Shown: positions 2,783 to 7,962, counted from the first letter of the stretch. The stretch: DNA of 64,000 nt from an uncultured virus (IMG/VR IMGVR_UViG_3300006990_000025) (IMGVR_UViG_3300006990_000025), one strand, 5' to 3'. Numbers and translations: made by a program. Notes: generated from the sequence alone by a model not told the origin.

Positions 2783-3012
2783 AGATGCCGTCTATAATCT
2801 GATTATCGGTCCTGTTCTCCGGTCCTGTCGCTCGACCCATCAAAGAGCCGTAGTTATTAGACCTAATAACATTGGAAACCATAAAACAAAACAATGTATG
2901 CGGAAGGCCATTAACTCGCCGCTCATTTCGACTTCGTAAAAATCCCAGTTCAAATATGCTTTCAAAATTTTACCATACATCATCTATGCCTCCCAGTATA
3001 ACGGTTTATTAC

Positions 3013-3246
3013 TTATTCCCCTCTTGCACATTCGTTGAGAATTTCCTCGTAGTGTGCTTCAAGTGTTTTAATTTCTTCATTCATGTTGTAAATGGTTTCA
3101 AGTATTCTTGTGTGACCACTGGTAAAGGCTTCATAATTGCCCTCTTCCAATTCTTCATTAAGTTCCATAATAGCGGTTCTCAATTTCCAGATTTTACCTG
3201 TATTGATTCTCAATTTCTTCTCGGTCTTGCTCATTCTTCCGTTCAT
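3013..3246 (-). CDS. small coiled-coil hypothetical protein
   Basis: 77 aa ORF; promoter TTATATAGG at 3266-3274. Confidence 0.7.
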   Translation of the reverse strand: MNGRMSKTEKKLRINTGKIWKLRTAIMELNEELEEGNYEAFTSGHTRILETIYNMNEEIKTLEAHYEEILNECARGE

Positions 3247-3283
3247 GTTTAGCGGTAGGGTTACGCCTATATAACAATATCGT

Positions 3284-3517
3284 CTATTTTAAAGGCATTC
3301 TTGCTTGATGTAGTTCTAAATAAGGAGCGTCGTTTGATATGCCCTCTTCTTCCATCCAGTACAATTTAACCTTGCATATATTACAAATTGGGCGGTTAAA
3401 AATCTGATATTTTATAATGGCTATCGGGTTGAATACCATCGAGAACACAGATACAGAAGCCCACCCACACTTGCAGGGGCGTTTAATATCCTTCATGCTT
3501 TGAATTAATCCACTCAT
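3284..3517 (-). CDS. hypothetical Zn-ribbon protein
   Basis: CKCG...CNIC motifs; GAGG ribosome-binding site upstream. Confidence 0.6.
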   Translation of the reverse strand: MSGLIQSMKDIKRPCKCGWASVSVFSMVFNPIAIIKYQIFNRPICNICKVKLYWMEEEGISNDAPYLELHQARMPLK

Positions 3518-3889
3518 CTTTTAATCCCTCATCCAAAAATCTCTGTCATTTGTTAGTTCGTTCATTAAGGCTTCAAACTCGGTTTGTGTCAGGTCGGTTA
3601 CTACTCTGCTCATGTATCTCCATACTGGCACTCCTATATAAGCATGTCGCCTACCGTTTTACCTATATAAACTTTTAGCAAACCTTATATACCCCCAAAA
3701 TCTTTATATACCCCCATATAGTAGCATGTATGAGAGCGGAGAACCGGACACCCCTGAATCAGGCACGGGGGGAGATTGCTACTATACTTTTTAGGTATAT
3801 AAACTTTTCGCAAGACTTATATAGTATAAAAATCTTTATATACCGTCAGTTATATGCTCAACATGACCGGCTTGTTGGGAGGCGAGCGC

Positions 3890-4134
3890 ACCCCTGCACC
3901 CGCCCCCCTGAGCCTGTGAATAAGAAGCGTGCCTTCATGCCCGTATGTCGCAAGCAATCTCTAACGGGTGCGAGCCGTTAGAACCCCATACCCCGAAGGT
4001 CGCACCCTCGTAACATAGTGGGTGGGGTTGGCAGTCGGTGTGGTGTCCAACTTTTACGCCGTGTGACACCCGCCCAACTCCGGCTTTTCCATCACCGGAG
4101 GGAACTTTCATCTATTGATTGGGTCGGGTACAAA
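3890..4134 (-). ncRNA. candidate structured ncRNA
   Basis: A standard viral promoter (4151-4171) has no ATG at the usual distance. The region is GC-rich with several perfect stems (CUCCGG/CCGGAG, GGUGUC/GACACC, AACCCCA/UGGGGUU, UCUAACGG/CCGUUAGA) and a C-UUCG-G tetraloop. Confidence 0.55.
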
Positions 4135-4173
4135 TGTTCCTGTGCATACTCCTATATAAGCATGTCGTCTATA

Positions 4174-4356
4174 TCAGGGGTATTTGTAACAAAACCTGCA
4201 CCTGTGGTTATTGCCGGTGTCTATATCAATTTGAATCGCCCCTTCTTTGTTGCTCACGCATTCAACATAAGGACACGGGAAAATTTTCTCCCCAGTATCA
4301 ACACAATAGTAAGACGGGCGGTTATTGGGATTCATAGAGTAAAACCAGTGGGTCAT
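4174..4356 (-). CDS. small Cys-rich hypothetical protein
   Basis: 60 aa ORF with CPYVEC and CRFC; last gene of a small operon driven from the promoter at about 4622. Confidence 0.55.
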   Translation of the reverse strand: MTHWFYSMNPNNRPSYYCVDTGEKIFPCPYVECVSNKEGAIQIDIDTGNNHRCRFCYKYP

Positions 4357-4937
4357 TCAAACACCCGCCTCTTTTTTGTCCTGTTGTCTTTTCTCCCATG
4401 CGTGATAACATGGGGAAGGGTCACATCTTGTTGATGACTTGCCACACTTACAACAAATTAAGACCACTTCAAGCACCCGCCTCAATAATTTCAATAATCC
4501 TTATTTTGTGATAGATTTCCTTTATCATTTCCTCAACTTCAAGGATTCGCTTTTCCATCATTTCTTTGTTCTCAGGTCGGTAAATTGGAGTTCTGCTCAT
4601 GTATCTCCATAAGGCCACTACTATATAAGCATACCTATAATAAAAATGCTTATATACTACTACCCGCTACGATAGAATAAGGGGGATTGAAGGCCACCTG
4701 ACTAAGGCACGGGGGGAGGGTGAGATAATTTTTTAGGGGTTATAAACTTTTCGCAAACTATATATAGTAGTTGTATATAACAAAAAGATTATATACCCCC
4801 AGTTATATGCTTACTACATGCGGGCGGTCTTGCCGTCAGGCCGACCCGATAAAAAAAAGCCCCCACCCATCCCGCAGGATGAGCAGGGGCAGTTATAACC
4901 CGCAGGTTATACCATCAATAATTTGGGGCGGTTGCCC

Positions 4938-5168
4938 TCAAGCAAATTTGCTTTTGATGTGAATGGTCAAGTTGGCGAACAAATCTTTACAGAAGTGCAT
5001 AACGGCTTCATTTTGCTCTGTTGTCACTGTTCCATCAAAGTCATTCATAACGGCAGTCCAGCACATATTGGTCAAAGACTCCATAGGGGTGCGGTCTGTT
5101 GTCAATTCATGAACATAGGTTTCAATCAATTGCTTGCGGGTTTCGGGGGTTGGGGTGTATCTCTCCAT
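4938..5168 (-). CDS. hypothetical early protein
   Basis: ATG 22 nt from CTTATATAGGGG (5186-5197); followed on the minus strand by a GC hairpin and T-run (about 4851-4890). Confidence 0.75.
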   Translation of the reverse strand: MERYTPTPETRKQLIETYVHELTTDRTPMESLTNMCWTAVMNDFDGTVTTEQNEAVMHFCKDLFANLTIHIKSKFA

Positions 5169-5339
5169 GTTTAGCGGTAGTGATGCCCCTATATAAGCAT
5201 TTTGTCTATATGACCTGATTTTCAGGCTATTTTGCCCCCAGTCGGCAAGCCGACACGCCCCCTACCTTCCGACTTACAACACCAATTAAGGCGTATTACT
5301 GCGTTGAGGATTTACGGGGGAGGGCTTTTCATCCAGTGC

Positions 5340-5708
5340 TTAAGGTGCGTTGCTTGTGAACTTGTAAGGCATCCACATGGTAGGCAAAGGGTCGCCGTTT
5401 TGCTTGCACGCTTCGCTCATTGGCTTAGGTTGAAAGTATTGGTCACGCTCGACCATGCCAGCAGGTGCGACGCTTACTAACTGCTCAAGGGTAATATAAC
5501 CGAGTTCGTCACAATCTCGGCCAAGTGGTGAAATCATATAACCGAAGAAGGTCATTGTTTCAGGGTTGCATTCTGTTGCATAGAAAGCACCACGACCACC
5601 GAAGAAGTAACGGACATAGACCATAGGGTCAGCCGTGCCATCTTGGGCGTATAGGGCAGGTATTTTCTTCATTTGGGCTTTGGTTGGGGTAAGTTGGTTT
5701 CTCGCCAT
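5340..5708 (-). CDS. DUF2958-like protein
   Basis: Motifs IPALYAQDG, VRYF, FYATE, FFGY, ELGYITLEQL and VERDQYFQPKPMSE recognised from DUF2958 proteins; start moved to the ATG at 5708. Confidence 0.75.
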   Translation of the reverse strand: MARNQLTPTKAQMKKIPALYAQDGTADPMVYVRYFFGGRGAFYATECNPETMTFFGYMISPLGRDCDELGYITLEQLVSVAPAGMVERDQYFQPKPMSEACKQNGDPLPTMWMPYKFTSNAP

Positions 5709-6096
5709 GTTATAGACCATGAGGCACTACTACTTAAAGGTGTCTATATAGAAAATCTTTATATAGTAATACTTACAGGACCATATAAGCACGGGCTGAA
5801 AACCGGCTGACTAAGGCACGGGGGGAGATTCCGTCTTTAGTATAGGGGTTATAAAGTTTTCGCAAACCTTATATAGTATATCAGATTTTAACAATATATC
5901 AAAAAGACTATATACCCCCCGTGTCATAGGCGTATCATGCGGGTGGCCTATCGAAAGCCGACCCAACAAAAAAAGAGAACCCCCCGCCCGTGAGCCGGTG
6001 GGCGAGGGATTCAATTTTTTGATTTTTTCTTTTGTGTTTTTTTTCTAATCCTCCTATGATTTTTATTTGAATTTCAGGCGTTTAATGTGGTCTATC

Positions 6097-6597
6097 TCAA
6101 GCGTTAGGGTGAATCTTTACACTTCCGGTCTTAACTCTCTTTGTCTCGCTTCTAATGGTGCTTAGAACGGTGTTTTTGTGGTTAGTCCACTTTAGGCCGT
6201 TAGCGTTCCAAAAGGCGACTCTATCTTCAACAGTAGCGAAGTTTTGAGAACATGCCTCAATAGCAGTTCGCAGTATCTTTTGAGCCTGTGGTGAGTTGAT
6301 ACCTTCTAACTCATGAATAAGGGCAGTAATTGTTAGTCCGTAGGTAGTCTTTGAAGTCATTGAATCAGCACCTTTTGTTTGAACTCCGCTCATCTCGATG
6401 ACATCAACTATTGCGCCGCTTTGAGGGTTGCGTATTACAAGGTCGGCCTTATAATCAATAGCCGAGTCTTGAGAAATGGTCTTGTTATCTTTAGGCATGT
6501 GCGCCGAAACTATGCGACCATAATTTAATTGGTTTGCTACCTCAAGGCTTGGGGTGTTCACAGTCGGGCTGGATTGGGTCTTTGTTACTTGAGCCAT
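6097..6597 (-). CDS. hypothetical protein
   Basis: Start moved to the ATG at 6597 (MAQVTK), which has a TATA-like TTTATG upstream; long T-tract terminator-like region after the gene. Confidence 0.7.
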   Translation of the reverse strand: MAQVTKTQSSPTVNTPSLEVANQLNYGRIVSAHMPKDNKTISQDSAIDYKADLVIRNPQSGAIVDVIEMSGVQTKGADSMTSKTTYGLTITALIHELEGINSPQAQKILRTAIEACSQNFATVEDRVAFWNANGLKWTNHKNTVLSTIRSETKRVKTGSVKIHPNA

Positions 6598-6977
6598 GAT
6601 TAGTCCTATAGGTGTTCGGCACATAAAGGTTTCGGTCATAAAGTGCGTTTTTAGCGTTTTTAGGTTTATTTTTTGGTCGCCAAAGTCAAAAAAATGGGTT
6701 CAAAATGACCTGATATTTTACCGGCAAAAAGTCAAAAAAGTATATAATAAAAACCTTTATAGACCCCCATATGTTAGACTATGAGGGGCGGGCAAATATC
6801 CGCCAAACTTGATACTGTTTTGATATTTTTTTATAGGGTTATAAGTCTTTCGCAAACCTTATATAGTAGGATAAAAAACCTCTATAGAAGCAAACCTTTA
6901 TAGACCCCCAGTGATATTTAACAACTAAGCGGAGCGAGGCCGTGAGGCTGATTTCGTTACATGATGCTTACATGCAA

Positions 6978-7069
6978 GTATCGGCTAAGTATCGGCTAAA
7001 CATGCTGCTTACGCTCAGGTATCGGCTAAGTATCGGCTAACCACCCAATATCTCGTAGGTATCGGCTAA
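6978..7069 (+). repeat. GTATCGGCTAA 11-mer, 5 copies
   Basis: Exact copies at 6978, 6989, 7019, 7030 and 7059. Confidence 0.95.
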
Positions 7070-7126
7070 ATGGTTCAAATCCGAATTAGATATTAACAGA
7101 TTCTTATTTCCCCAGAAGTCCAGCCT

Positions 7127-7732
7127 CTAATCAGATTCTTCATTTAGGTTATCGGTTTCAATAACTTGCTTTGGGTCAATGTCTATTGTTCTCAATTCTT
7201 CTTGAACAACCTGCCTAAATTGTTCCATCGGGTCGTAGCCAATGTTCACAACAACCTGTGGTTTTGCATCTTGTGCGCCTGACATTTTATCCAACGCATC
7301 TTGAGCCTTCATCAATCCACCTATCATGAATGAAACATTGTTTAACTTAGATACATTGTCAGCCAAAGAATGAGCCTGTAAAATAATCCCCTCTAAGCGG
7401 GCTATGGAACGCCTTCGTCGTGAATAACTATCCAACCTAAGCCAGTCGGTATCACCCAACTCCGCTTTTGAAATAGCCAAGTGTTGCATATCCTCTGCTT
7501 GTTGTTGAGCCAGTGACATAAGACGCTTCCATTCCCCTTGCGTGAGACGGCTATCCAAATCGGCCTCCGACAATCTTCTTCTAACCTCATGAGTCTTGTA
7601 ACCTTGAGCAATTAACATGGCAGTCCATCTAATCAAAGCATTATCTATGCCATTGGTTTTTCCTGACAAATCAACTGCAAAGTTTTCTTCGTCGTCGGAC
7701 TCTTCTTCGTCATCCCATTCGTCTGTCATCAT
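7127..7732 (-). CDS. putative terminase small subunit
   Basis: N-terminal HTH-like segment (LIAQGYKTHEVRRRL), long amphipathic helices and a C-terminal beta-strand (KPQVVVNIGY), an architecture typical of TerS. Start probably MMTDEW. Confidence 0.4.
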   Translation of the reverse strand: MMTDEWDDEEESDDEENFAVDLSGKTNGIDNALIRWTAMLIAQGYKTHEVRRRLSEADLDSRLTQGEWKRLMSLAQQQAEDMQHLAISKAELGDTDWLRLDSYSRRRRSIARLEGIILQAHSLADNVSKLNNVSFMIGGLMKAQDALDKMSGAQDAKPQVVVNIGYDPMEQFRQVVQEELRTIDIDPKQVIETDNLNEESD

Positions 7733-7776
7733 GCTGAAATAAAAAGAAGTGGTTGAAAAAACTATCGGTAAAAAAA

Positions 7777-7962
7777 TCATTCGGGGCAAGCCGGACAAAC
7801 ATACCCATTTTGGGTTTTAAGCCACCCCTTTTCAATCAGGTTTGACTCGCCTAAGCGACTCTTAATATCGCATATAATACAATCAATTCTTTTACTATTG
7901 ACAACATCTTCTCGCTTAATATATCGCTTCATACTTTCACCGAATCCGTCATCACTTATCAT
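7777..7962 (-). CDS. small Zn-finger protein
   Basis: CIIC...GW...VCPAC motifs; translationally coupled to the upstream methyltransferase. Confidence 0.6.
   Translation of the reverse strand: MISDDGFGESMKRYIKREDVVNSKRIDCIICDIKSRLGESNLIEKGWLKTQNGYVCPACPE

What the first reader, a model, noticed from the sequence alone, without database searches (positions are those of the whole stretch)
3660..6930. Repeated multi-promoter module with a conserved G-rich element between convergent TATA boxes
Seen: three near-complete copies (about 3697-3870, 4641-4850, 5751-5965) and one partial copy (6740-6920) of a non-coding module. Each runs: rightward BRE/TATA (AAAATCTTTATATA-like), about 45 variable nt, CTGA(ATC/CTA)AGGCACGGGGGGAG (21 bp identical at 4698 and 5807), a back-to-back core that reads CGAAAAGTTTATA leftward and CGCAAACCTTATATA rightward, another rightward AAAAGA(T/C)TATATACC, then a GC hairpin (GGGCGGTCT..AGGCCGACCC; GGGTGGCCT..AGCCGACCC). 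No credible ORF follows the rightward TATA boxes. Known: BRE+TATA recruits archaeal TFB/TBP. Inference: this could be (a) a family of small sense/antisense RNAs with a constant handle and a variable segment, (b) a TBP/TFB/RNAP sponge for host takeover or transcription-assisted DNA entry, or (c) recombination joints that shuffle single-gene cassettes. I do not recognise it as a described system.
Basis: partly seen in the sequence, partly recalled or inferred. Interest (0 to 1): 0.85.

Follow-up and report, generated by a model that had tools for sequence, protein, structure and literature searches.

The report
Promoter cassettes with conserved viral small RNA
The spacers between small genes of this ocean virus, which probably infects archaea, are reusable promoter-and-terminator cassettes, and most also appear to make a short RNA with a 20-letter core found unchanged in dozens of related marine viruses and of unknown function.

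Summary
The window is a tailed virus with every gene on the minus strand, read from archaeal-type BRE/TATA promoters as leaderless mRNAs. Strong rightward TATA boxes occur only at 3.6-6.9 kb.

Three modules carry CTGAnTnAGGCACGGGGGGAG. This core lies 40-45 nt downstream of a rightward TATA box. That box sits 19-21 nt before a conserved UAAG in every relative examined.

An exact-pattern scan found the element in 34 marine metagenome contigs and one IMG/VR contig, at 1-3 copies about 1 kb apart. A short hairpin between UAAG and the core keeps its loop and changes its stem by compensatory and G-U substitutions. It matches no Rfam family, tRNA or CRISPR repeat.

I read it as a new, promoter-driven small RNA of about 50-85 nt. 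In the window's clade a leftward promoter starts the exact antisense RNA.

The surrounding module resembles the PeSL cassettes of T4-type phages. It ends one leftward gene with a hairpin plus U7-8 and starts the next. Homology breakpoints between relatives fall on its promoters, with different genes in between.

No RNA data show the transcripts, and the RNA's function is unknown. A cluster of five iterons next to the fourth module may mark an origin or operator.

The parts
3654..3695 (.). Extra copy of the back-to-back BRE/TATA core (leftward TATA, CG-rich BRE pair, rightward TATA), left of module 1
   Evidence: the repeat finder D1 and D10; TATA scan
3635..3642 (-). TATA box of a leaderless leftward 30-codon gene (ATG 21 nt downstream)
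   Evidence: CGACATGCTTATATA, gap 21 to ATG
3703..3710 (+). Rightward TATA box of small RNA 1
3731..3792 (+). Predicted small RNA 1. It is a divergent type that starts UAUGAG and has no P1 hairpin. Core at 3754-3774, U5 at 3788-3792.
   Evidence: (25.9 bits)
3786..3827 (.). Back-to-back core of module 1. Its leftward TATA lies 21 nt beyond the core's last G.
3835..3842 (+). Third rightward TATA box of module 1
   Evidence: (D3, D4)
4622..4629 (-). TATA box of a leaderless leftward gene (43 codons)
4649..4656 (+). Rightward TATA box of small RNA 2
   Evidence: gap 21 to UAAG at 4678
4678..4734 (+). Predicted small RNA 2: UAAG, hairpin P1 with loop AUUGAAGG, core 4698-4718, U6 at 4729-4734
   Evidence: (61.2 bits)
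4729..4770 (.). Back-to-back core of module 2
   Evidence: D1
4788..4795 (+). Third rightward TATA box of module 2. A homology breakpoint with relatives lies at 4823, its predicted start site.
4822..4847 (.).
4851..4890 (-). Terminator of leftward gene 4938-5168: 14-bp hairpin then U8
   Evidence: minus strand -40.4 kcal/mol, z -3.3
5190..5197 (-). TATA box of leaderless leftward gene 4938-5168. A homology breakpoint lies at 5188.
5758..5765 (+). Rightward TATA box of small RNA 3
   Evidence: gap 20
5786..5838 (+). Predicted small RNA 3: UAAG, P1 (GCACGG/CCGGC, loop GCUGAAAA), core 5807-5827, P2 ACGG/CCGU, then U3
   Evidence: 80.5 bits; z -3.5
5838..5879 (.). Back-to-back core of module 3
   Evidence: D1
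5907..5914 (+). Third rightward TATA box of module 3
   Evidence: D4
5941..5964 (.).
5968..6012 (-). Terminator of leftward gene 6097-6639: hairpin then U7
   Evidence: minus strand -39.2 kcal/mol, z -4.4
6756..6832 (+). Module 4: a rightward TATA box (6756-6763) and an unrelated predicted RNA of about 49 nt that ends in U7. It has no G-rich core.
6828..6904 (.). Back-to-back core of module 4, plus a last rightward TATA box (6897-6904) that points into the iterons
6978..7069 (+). Five iterons GTATCGGCTAA, between the conserved genes 6097-6639 and 7127-7798
   Evidence: (D6)

Best explanation
The region is the variable small-gene arm of a marine tailed virus that uses archaeal transcription signals. 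Its spacers are built from one reusable regulatory cassette.

Each cassette does three things.
(1) It ends the leftward gene on its right with a GC hairpin plus U7-8.
(2) It starts the leftward gene on its left from a BRE/TATA promoter placed 21-22 nt before the ATG, which gives a leaderless mRNA.
(3) Between these, a rightward BRE/TATA promoter fires against the direction of all genes.

The predicted start of that rightward transcript is a conserved UAAG. The product would be an RNA of about 50-85 nt, made of a short hairpin with a conserved (A/G)UUGAAR or CUGAAAA loop, then the 20-nt core CUGAnUnAGGCACGGGGGGAG, then usually a 4-bp hairpin ACGG/CCGU.

I take this RNA, not the DNA, to be the selected product. 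Most likely its core, which has no conserved pairing partner, is bound by a conserved protein or other factor.

In the window's clade a leftward promoter 20-21 nt beyond the G-run would start the exact antisense RNA. The A-rich BRE of each promoter reads as an oligo-U stop for the opposing transcript. The pair could therefore also act as a face-to-face interference switch on the long-leader form of the neighbouring gene.

Because the cassettes are the most conserved DNA in the arm, they also serve as homology for swapping the genes between them.

Shown: the repeats, the promoter geometry, conservation in relatives, covariation in the hairpin, and the breakpoints. Inferred: that the promoters fire, the RNA ends, and everything about what the RNA does.
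For: Virus type. The window has HK97-type capsid, portal and terminase genes, and all large ORFs are on the minus strand.

Gene promoters. Minus-strand CGnnATnCTTATATA boxes lie 21-23 nt before the ATG at nine genes. Sigma-70-like sites are fewer than in shuffles, 4 against 10.1.

Spread. The exact pattern TGAnTnAGGCACGGGGGGAG gave 62 stretches in metagenome contigs. It also gave one IMG/VR contig. After I dropped 7 hits that lack the surrounding context, 41 distinct copies remained, from 34 metagenome contigs, the IMG/VR contig and the window.

Promoter geometry. The gap from TATA to UAAG is 21 nt in 26 of 37 contexts, 20 in 5 and 19 in 2. It is 28 in 4, where a second overlapping box gives 21.

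Hairpin P1. There are 13 short variants that keep the loop. The second pair is CG in 21 copies, GC in 13, UA in 2 and AU in 1. The third pair is GC in 15, GU in 10 and CG in 3. The covariation score is 0.160 against 0.057 in shuffles, with 0 of 500 shuffles as high, and it exceeds all slid controls. A model-fitted alignment gives the same picture. The G-U pairs read as pairs only on the plus strand.

Conservation. The core is identical in contigs whose neighbouring protein (6097-6639) is only 26-38% identical to the window's.

Antisense promoter. A leftward TATA lies 20-21 nt beyond the core in 11 of 41 contexts by script, plus 3 more by eye.

Terminators.

Cassette swapping. HSPs with two relatives break at 3921/4151, 4356/4592 and 4823/5188. 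Different gene clusters lie in between: c57 against c16, and c103 against c35 or c41. In one contig the 6097-6639 gene is followed directly by the module-1 type.
Against: No transcript has been seen. The one metatranscriptome holding part of the region gave contigs only over the leftward ORFs, and contigs cannot show small RNAs.

The identity of the core across copies is partly an artefact of the search, which required the exact pattern. Diverged copies elsewhere could not be looked for.

P2 and the core never vary, so they carry no covariation. RNAs 1 and 2 of the window fold no better than shuffles, with z near 0. Copy 1 lacks UAAG and P1.

The 3' ends are loosely defined. A run of 5 or more T lies within 50 nt in only 14 of 41 contexts. 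The facing leftward promoter is absent in 20 of 41, so the antisense partner is not part of the conserved unit.

No target was found. The window has no complementarity of 9 nt or more outside the modules. No cellular genome among the species representatives holds the pattern.

The archaeal host is inferred from promoter geometry alone. The related 55.5-kb contig sits in a MAG labelled Legionellales.
Confidence: 0.5

Rival explanations
1. The conserved 20 bp is a DNA site, not an RNA. It would be an operator or recombination site for a viral or host DNA-binding protein. The hairpin would be a single-strand DNA feature, as in integron attC sites or primase recognition hairpins, and the nearby TATA box would be incidental.
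For: The core is identical at every position except two free ones, with no covariation inside it. This is what a protein-binding site looks like. The element borders swapped gene cassettes. All copies share one orientation. The virus has a PrimPol-like gene (weak: 21.6 bits, below the cut-off).
Against: A BRE/TATA box sits at a fixed 19-21 nt before UAAG in all 37 contexts, which a DNA site would not need. Ten of 41 copies have G-T at one stem position, which reads as a mismatch on the other strand. Pfam found no integrase or recombinase among the 33 ORFs of 150 aa or more.
Confidence: 0.15
2. The rightward transcripts are replication primers or R-loop starters. A promoter followed by a G6 cluster on the non-template strand would seed a stable RNA-DNA hybrid near an origin, which the iterons and AT-rich stretch at 6640-7070 would mark.
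For: Five same-strand iterons lie at 6978-7069, next to an AT-rich stretch and module 4. The same cluster of 4-6 iterons lies between the two conserved genes in 21 of 36 contig maps. All are on the plus strand, with 0 on the minus strand in 150,769 nt. In several relatives one or two iterons follow the small RNA within 60 nt. From recall: G clusters behind a promoter favour R-loops in ColE1, in phage T4 origins and in mitochondrial DNA.
Against: The RNAs point against all genes, so forks primed by them would meet transcription head-on. The hairpin with a conserved loop and the 14 non-G positions of the core are not needed for an R-loop. The iteron-binding protein and the origin are unidentified: models of the two flanking proteins were poor (pLDDT 62-63) and matched nothing. 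Iterons also occur as a pair at 2325/2354, before another gene, which fits an operator as well.
Confidence: 0.12
3. There is no dedicated RNA function. The modules would be only promoter/terminator cassettes kept similar by recombination, and the rightward promoters would act as roadblocks that insulate neighbouring leftward units.
For: Cassette breakpoints fall on the modules. Convergent promoters sit at the 3' ends of the leftward genes. From their abstracts, PeSLs work as promoter plus terminator (PMC2839356) and HF2 repeats carry promoters with long counter-transcripts (PMC8707807).
Against: Gene conversion would homogenise the whole module. Instead, paralogous copies in one genome differ everywhere except the 20-nt core and the hairpin loop. 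The stem changes are compensatory.
Confidence: 0.1
4. The dense TATA boxes act as a TBP/TFB/RNAP sponge, or as a motor that pulls the DNA into the cell.
For: There are eleven strong rightward boxes and several leftward ones in 3.3 kb.
Against: Relatives often keep one or two promoters per module, and 20 of 41 contexts lack the facing box. The idea does not explain the core or the hairpin. The region is not shown to be a genome end: contigs place it 0.5-4 kb from one contig end but 71-74 kb from the other.
Confidence: 0.04

Closest known systems
PeSL (promoter-early stem-loop) mobile regulatory cassettes of T4-type phages (PMC2839356 and PMC4122927; abstracts and outlines read)
   Same: Short composite promoter-plus-terminator units repeated between small non-essential genes of a variable genome arm. 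Insertions and replacements between relatives have their ends on the units.
   Different: The promoters here are archaeal BRE/TATA, not sigma-70. The modules are larger (170-210 bp) and hold up to four promoters in both directions. They enclose a separately conserved transcribed element. PeSL mini-circles could not be tested.
Intergenic repeats of halovirus HF2, and the TATA-plus-inverted-repeat motif of HGTV-1 (PMC8707807, abstract read; PMC3950731, one passage read)
   Same: Archaeal tailed viruses with repeated intergenic AT-rich motifs that act as promoters. Their positions are conserved among relatives. Counter-transcripts are reported for HF2. A PeSL-like role has been proposed for HGTV-1.
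   Different: No sequence relation was tested. Neither the abstract nor the passage read mentions a conserved G-rich RNA core or a dedicated antisense small-RNA unit.
Face-to-face promoter switches of temperate phages such as 186 pR/pL (recalled, no paper read)
   Same: Two promoters fire toward each other over a few tens of base pairs. This gives overlapping complementary RNAs and possible interference.
   Different: The pair here is repeated three times per genome and is present in only about half of the relatives' copies. No lysogeny genes were seen.
Phage RNA decoys, such as solitary CRISPR-repeat anti-CRISPR RNAs and pseudo-ToxI (recalled)
   Same: Small virus-encoded RNAs in one to a few copies, with a constant part that would bind a host protein.
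   Different: The pattern is in no cellular genome other than the viral contig binned in a MAG and one high-GC hit judged chance. It therefore copies no repeat or antitoxin at full length in the genomes held. The copies are dispersed, not tandem.

Membership tests
PeSL-like regulatory cassette | Composite of a strong promoter and a stem-loop terminator in the spacers of a variable gene arm | tested here: met
   By sequence only. TATA boxes lie 21-22 nt before leaderless ATGs. Hairpin plus U7-8 lies on the gene strand.
PeSL-like regulatory cassette | Breakpoints of replacements between related genomes fall on the cassettes | tested here: met
   HSP ends lie at 3921/4151, 4356/4592 and 4823/5188, with different gene clusters between them.
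PeSL-like regulatory cassette | Sigma-70-type early promoter | tested here: not met
   The BRE/TATA geometry is archaeal. Sigma-70-like sites are fewer than in shuffles, 4 against 10.1.
PeSL-like regulatory cassette | Excised mini-circles formed between neighbouring cassettes | not testable with these tools
   This needs raw reads or PCR. The contigs laid showed only one 'goes back' joint, at 3609/3243 in an RNA-library contig.
Any Rfam family | Score at or above the family's gathering threshold | tested here: not met
   There were 0 matches in the window. At the permissive threshold nothing overlapped the element, in the window or in 8 relatives' loci.
tRNA or tRNA-like gene | Cloverleaf found by ARAGORN | tested here: not met
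   0 genes in 64 kb.
Archaeal box C/D small RNA | C box (RUGAUGA, recalled) near the 5' end, paired with a D box (CUGA) near the 3' end | tested here: not met
   CUGA is present and identical in every copy recovered, but no C box is present in any of the 41 copies, by eye. There was no Rfam snoRNA hit.
Solitary CRISPR repeat or mini-array | The constant part equals a CRISPR repeat of a cellular genome | tested here: not met
   The exact pattern was searched over the species-representative genomes. It hit only the viral contig inside a MAG and one Nocardioides contig judged chance. Partial similarity could not be tested.
Integron attC-type cassette site | A site-specific recombinase encoded nearby | tested here: not met
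   No integrase or recombinase Pfam family was found among 33 ORFs of 150 aa or more. Smaller ORFs were only partly scanned.
Promoter-driven archaeal small RNA gene | A BRE/TATA box at the fixed distance that places +1 at the conserved 5' end | tested here: met
   The gap is 19-21 nt in all 37 contexts, counting the second overlapping box in 4 of them.
Promoter-driven archaeal small RNA gene | Secondary structure kept by compensatory change | tested here: inconclusive
   In P1, 3 of 5 pairs show double changes, and the covariation score lies above all 500 shuffles and all slid controls. P2 and the core never vary.
Promoter-driven archaeal small RNA gene | The transcript is detected | not testable with these tools
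   Only assembled contigs of one RNA library were available.

The most novel reading that the evidence does not exclude
The 20-nt G-rich core is the working part of a virus-encoded small RNA family. It would be the first such family for marine archaeal tailed viruses. It would act in trans as a decoy or guide for a highly conserved host or viral factor. In some clades it would be made together with its exact antisense, so that infected cells would hold a defined double-stranded RNA of about 48 bp. Several paralogues per genome, differing in hairpin and tail but not in the core, would then be a dosage or timing series.
Probability: 0.3. Interest if true: 0.8.

Novelty: new variant of a known kind. 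Interest (0 to 1): 0.62.

Why it matters
Regulation in marine archaeal viruses is poorly explored. My literature searches found no small-RNA family described for them.

An element identical over 20 nt in viruses whose neighbouring proteins have drifted to about 30% identity points to a strongly constrained interaction. It could be cloned and tested directly.

The modules also give sequence-level evidence that promoter/terminator cassettes drive gene shuffling in archaeal tailed viruses, as PeSLs do in T4-type phages. The covariance model built here could be used to mark this virus group in ocean metagenomes.

Tried and rejected
RNA evidence. One metatranscriptome run (X20) held 14% of the region's words. 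Its contigs lie only on leftward ORFs (3243-3609, 4238-4401, 5157-5612, 5919-6506, 7327-7539). Two other RNA runs gave nothing. Contigs cannot show small RNAs, so this says nothing either way.

The two conserved neighbour proteins (6097-6639 and 7127-7798).
- Pfam, PHROGs: no family.
- AlphaFold models: poor, pLDDT 62.1 and 62.8.
- Foldseek against PDB: no match at E <= 0.001.
- PDB profile search: 0 hits for 7127-7798.
- ESM Atlas: for 7127-7798, only viral hypothetical clusters, one with HTH_20 in 10% of members; for 6097-6639, nothing.

The search for related loci with 6097-6639 in viral contigs found no relative. The 735-aa ORF has no PDB relative.

The GenBank phage collection has no DNA match to 3000-7600 and no close terminase or capsid relative. 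The nearest held virus record, G001, lacks the region.

Coding readings of the core were rejected. All three codon positions are identical across copies and no start codon is present (by eye).

Readings as a tRNA anticodon arm, K-turn, hammerhead or riboswitch were considered by eye and dropped for lack of the defining nucleotides.

The core's complementarity to the C-run after the third TATA box of module 3 (I13/I14) is not kept in other modules.

The covariance-model search of all held loci found no diverged copies.

A literature search for the 13-mer returned two unrelated papers, on wastewater microalgae and crab gut bacteria. I take these to be chance primer matches and did not read the passages.
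Full report
WHAT THE WINDOW IS. Pfam finds an HK97-type capsid protein, prohead protease, portal, large terminase, tape-measure-like tail protein, two C5 DNA methylases, an XPD-like helicase, a PD-(D/E)XK nuclease and a weak PrimPol match. All large ORFs lie on the minus strand. No tRNA and no Rfam family is present.

The gene promoters are archaeal in form. Boxes of the type CGnnATnCTTATATA lie on the minus strand 21-23 nt before the ATG of nine genes, which gives leaderless mRNAs. Sigma-70-like sites are rarer than in shuffled sequence, 4 against 10.1. I therefore treat the window as a tailed virus of a marine archaeon. This rests on promoter geometry alone. The terminase and capsid have no close named relatives. 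A related 55.5-kb contig is binned in a MAG labelled Legionellales, which I take to be a binning error but cannot prove.

The repeat finder recovers the back-to-back TATA core five times (3654, 3786, 4729, 5838, 6828), the G-rich element three times (3754, 4698, 5807) and the downstream box four times. The 15-mer of the G-rich element occurs 3 times against 0.07 expected. Strong rightward TATA boxes occur nowhere else in 64 kb. The fourth module has the promoters but an unrelated predicted RNA that ends in U7. The covariance model finds exactly three copies of the element.

THE ELEMENT IS WIDESPREAD. An exact scan for TGAnTnAGGCACGGGGGGAG found one IMG/VR contig with two copies. In the species-representative genomes it found that same contig plus one Nocardioides hit. 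In metagenome contigs it found 62 stretches.

I set aside seven hits (L006, L027, L031, L038, L047, L055, L058) because they lack any of the surrounding features. The rest are 41 distinct copies from 34 metagenome contigs, the IMG/VR contig and the window. Most contigs carry one to three copies spaced 0.7-2.6 kb apart, most often about 1 kb, all in one orientation.

Caveat: because the scan demanded the exact pattern, the identity of the core across genomes is partly built in. What is not built in is that paralogous copies within one genome differ almost everywhere else. Nor is it built in that the core is unchanged in contigs whose neighbouring protein is 26-38% identical to the window's.

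ANATOMY. Aligned copies show four features in order.
- A BRE/TATA box.
- A gap of 19-21 nt in all 37 distinct upstream contexts. It is 21 in 26, 20 in 5 and 19 in 2. It is 28 in 4, where a second overlapping box gives 21.
- A conserved (A)UAAG.
- A hairpin P1, then the core, then usually nnnCCGUCU.

The TATA-to-UAAG gap equals the TATA-to-ATG gap of the virus's leaderless genes. The predicted start is therefore at UAAG.

P1 has 13 short variants in about seven stem classes. All close a loop of the form (A/G)UUGAAR(N) or CUGAAAA, and several have one bulged base. Two long forms carry an insertion of about 23 nt in the loop.

On the 41-row alignment:
- The second pair is CG 21, GC 13, UA 2, AU 1.
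- The third pair is GC 15, GU 10, CG 3.
- The covariation score is 0.160 against 0.057 in shuffles (0 of 500 as high), above every slid control.
- A model-fitted alignment of 36 distinct rows gives 0.159 against 0.057.
- Ten copies use G-U, which is a pair only on the plus strand.

P2 (ACGG/CCGU) and the core never vary, so nothing can be said for or against their pairing. Only RNA 3 of the window folds better than shuffles (z -3.5). RNAs 1 and 2 do not. Copy 1 is a divergent type without UAAG and P1.

3' ENDS AND THE ANTISENSE PARTNER. A run of five or more T follows within 50 nt in 14 of 41 downstream contexts. Elsewhere only U3-4 follows P2 (one search lists that site in module 3 as terminator-like).

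In the window's clade a leftward BRE/TATA box lies 20-21 nt beyond the last G of the core. The script found this in 11 of 41 contexts, and 3 more were mis-scored by my script but are plain by eye. The leftward start would therefore fall on the complement of the G-run. The two predicted RNAs would overlap over the whole UAAG-to-GAG segment, about 48 nt. The A-rich BRE of each promoter reads as U4-5 on the opposing transcript.

In another clade the leftward box is 61 nt away (7 of 41). In 20 of 41 there is none. The antisense partner is thus a clade feature, not part of the conserved unit.

THE REST OF THE MODULE. The third rightward box (TATATACCCCC type) starts into a GC hairpin. That hairpin lies directly beyond a much stronger minus-strand hairpin followed by U8 or U7. 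The minus strand folds to -40.4 and -39.2 kcal/mol, against -33.6 and -28.2 for the plus strand. Relatives show the same layout of rightward box, GCCGACC-containing hairpin, A7-8 and GC hairpin.

So each module ends the leftward gene on its right and starts the one on its left. The short ATG frames after the third box are not conserved.

CASSETTE EXCHANGE. I clustered the minus-strand ORFs of 36 oriented contig maps. The array of small RNAs lies at the border between a variable small-gene arm and a conserved backbone. The backbone consists of 6097-6639, 7127-7798, a 61-aa protein and the methylases.

In 19 of 36 maps the 6097-6639 homologue lies directly to the right of the last copy, or after one mini-ORF. 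Most other maps end before that point. The gene to the left of one and the same RNA type differs between contigs (clusters c4 = DUF2958, c6, c19, c5).

BLAST of the window against its two closest relatives gives blocks of 86-96% identity over the modules. These break at 3921/4151, 4356/4592 and 4823/5188. The breaks fall at the predicted start of the third rightward box and at the TATA box or start codon of the next leftward gene. Unrelated genes lie in between (c103 against c35 or c41; c27 against c8; c57 against c16). In one short contig the 6097-6639 gene is followed directly by the module-1 type at 96.6% identity.

This is the pattern described for PeSLs of T4-type phages (PMC2839356 and PMC4122927, abstracts). 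It has been proposed for the haloarchaeal virus HGTV-1 (PMC3950731, passage). HF2 intergenic repeats were shown to carry promoters, with long counter-transcripts (PMC8707807, abstract).

WHAT THE RNA MIGHT DO. No function can be shown.
- The core has no complementarity of 9 nt or more to other leftward mRNAs of the window.
- No copy or complement of the pattern exists in the cellular genomes held.
- This argues against an extended antisense target, a copied CRISPR repeat or an attachment site.
- It leaves open binding of a protein or a short seed.

I therefore favour a protein-binding or decoy RNA, with local antisense interference as a clade-specific addition. I rate the whole reading at 0.5.

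Rivals are a DNA-level site (0.15), an R-loop or primer role near a possible origin (0.12), insulation only (0.10) and a factor sponge (0.04).

THE ITERONS. GTATCG(A/G)(C/G)TAA occurs five times at 6978-7069, after an AT-rich stretch and module 4. It occurs twice at 2325/2354 and nowhere else in 64 kb. A cluster of 4-6 lies between the same two conserved genes in 21 of 36 maps, always on the plus strand. In several relatives one or two copies follow a small RNA within 60 nt. This may be an origin, a packaging site or an operator. The flanking proteins could not be identified.

EARLIER NOTES OF THIS SCAN. Notes on other genomes describe TATA-driven small RNAs, face-to-face TATA pairs and PeSL-like cassettes in other archaeal viruses. 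I use them as context only and checked none of them.

VERDICT. The module is a new, archaeal variant of a known kind of regulatory and recombination cassette. It encloses what is most likely a new small-RNA family of unknown function.

Noticed in passing
window 6978-7069 and 2325-2365; relatives as: The iteron GTATCG(A/G)(C/G)TAA occurs five times between genes 6097-6639 and 7127-7798, and twice before gene 1834-2286. It is always on the plus strand. The same cluster is found in 21 of 36 related contig maps. It may be an origin, a packaging site or an operator.
   Followed up: partly
window 6682-6693 and 6728-6739: AAAGTCAAAAAA occurs twice in the AT-rich stretch between the start of gene 6097-6639 and module 4, next to the iterons.
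   Followed up: no
L048:1190-1274 (-): A near-threshold match to the Rfam skipping-rope RNA (36.2 bits, gathering score 36.7, E 4.8e-05). It lies on the same strand as, and about 1.2 kb downstream of, that contig's G-rich small RNA, inside a GC-rich stretch of about 1.9 kb with no ORF of 60 aa or more.
   Followed up: no
window 3870-4140; long ORF-poor GC-rich stretches in L001, L010, L048, L051: GC-rich segments of 0.25-1.9 kb lie behind leftward TATA boxes and have no ORF, or only a non-conserved one (58 aa in the window). In L048 the leftward box recurs about every 300 nt. They may be longer leftward non-coding RNAs.
   Followed up: no
window 5340-5720 (-): The gene left of small RNA 3 is a DUF2958 protein (E 7e-07). 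In relatives this slot holds unrelated small proteins.
   Followed up: partly
window 5722-5841, DNA run X2 (table 8): Two contigs of one DNA run cover the promoter and hairpin of small RNA 3. One is identical and one has 11 differences and a gap. This suggests two alleles in one sample that share the core.
   Followed up: no
window 7127-7798 (-): This is the most conserved protein of the region, 67-98% identical across contigs. It has an acidic N-terminus, a small helix-turn-helix-like domain (model pLDDT 72-87 over residues 21-80, by 10-residue blocks) and one helix of about 90 residues. No family was found.
   Followed up: partly
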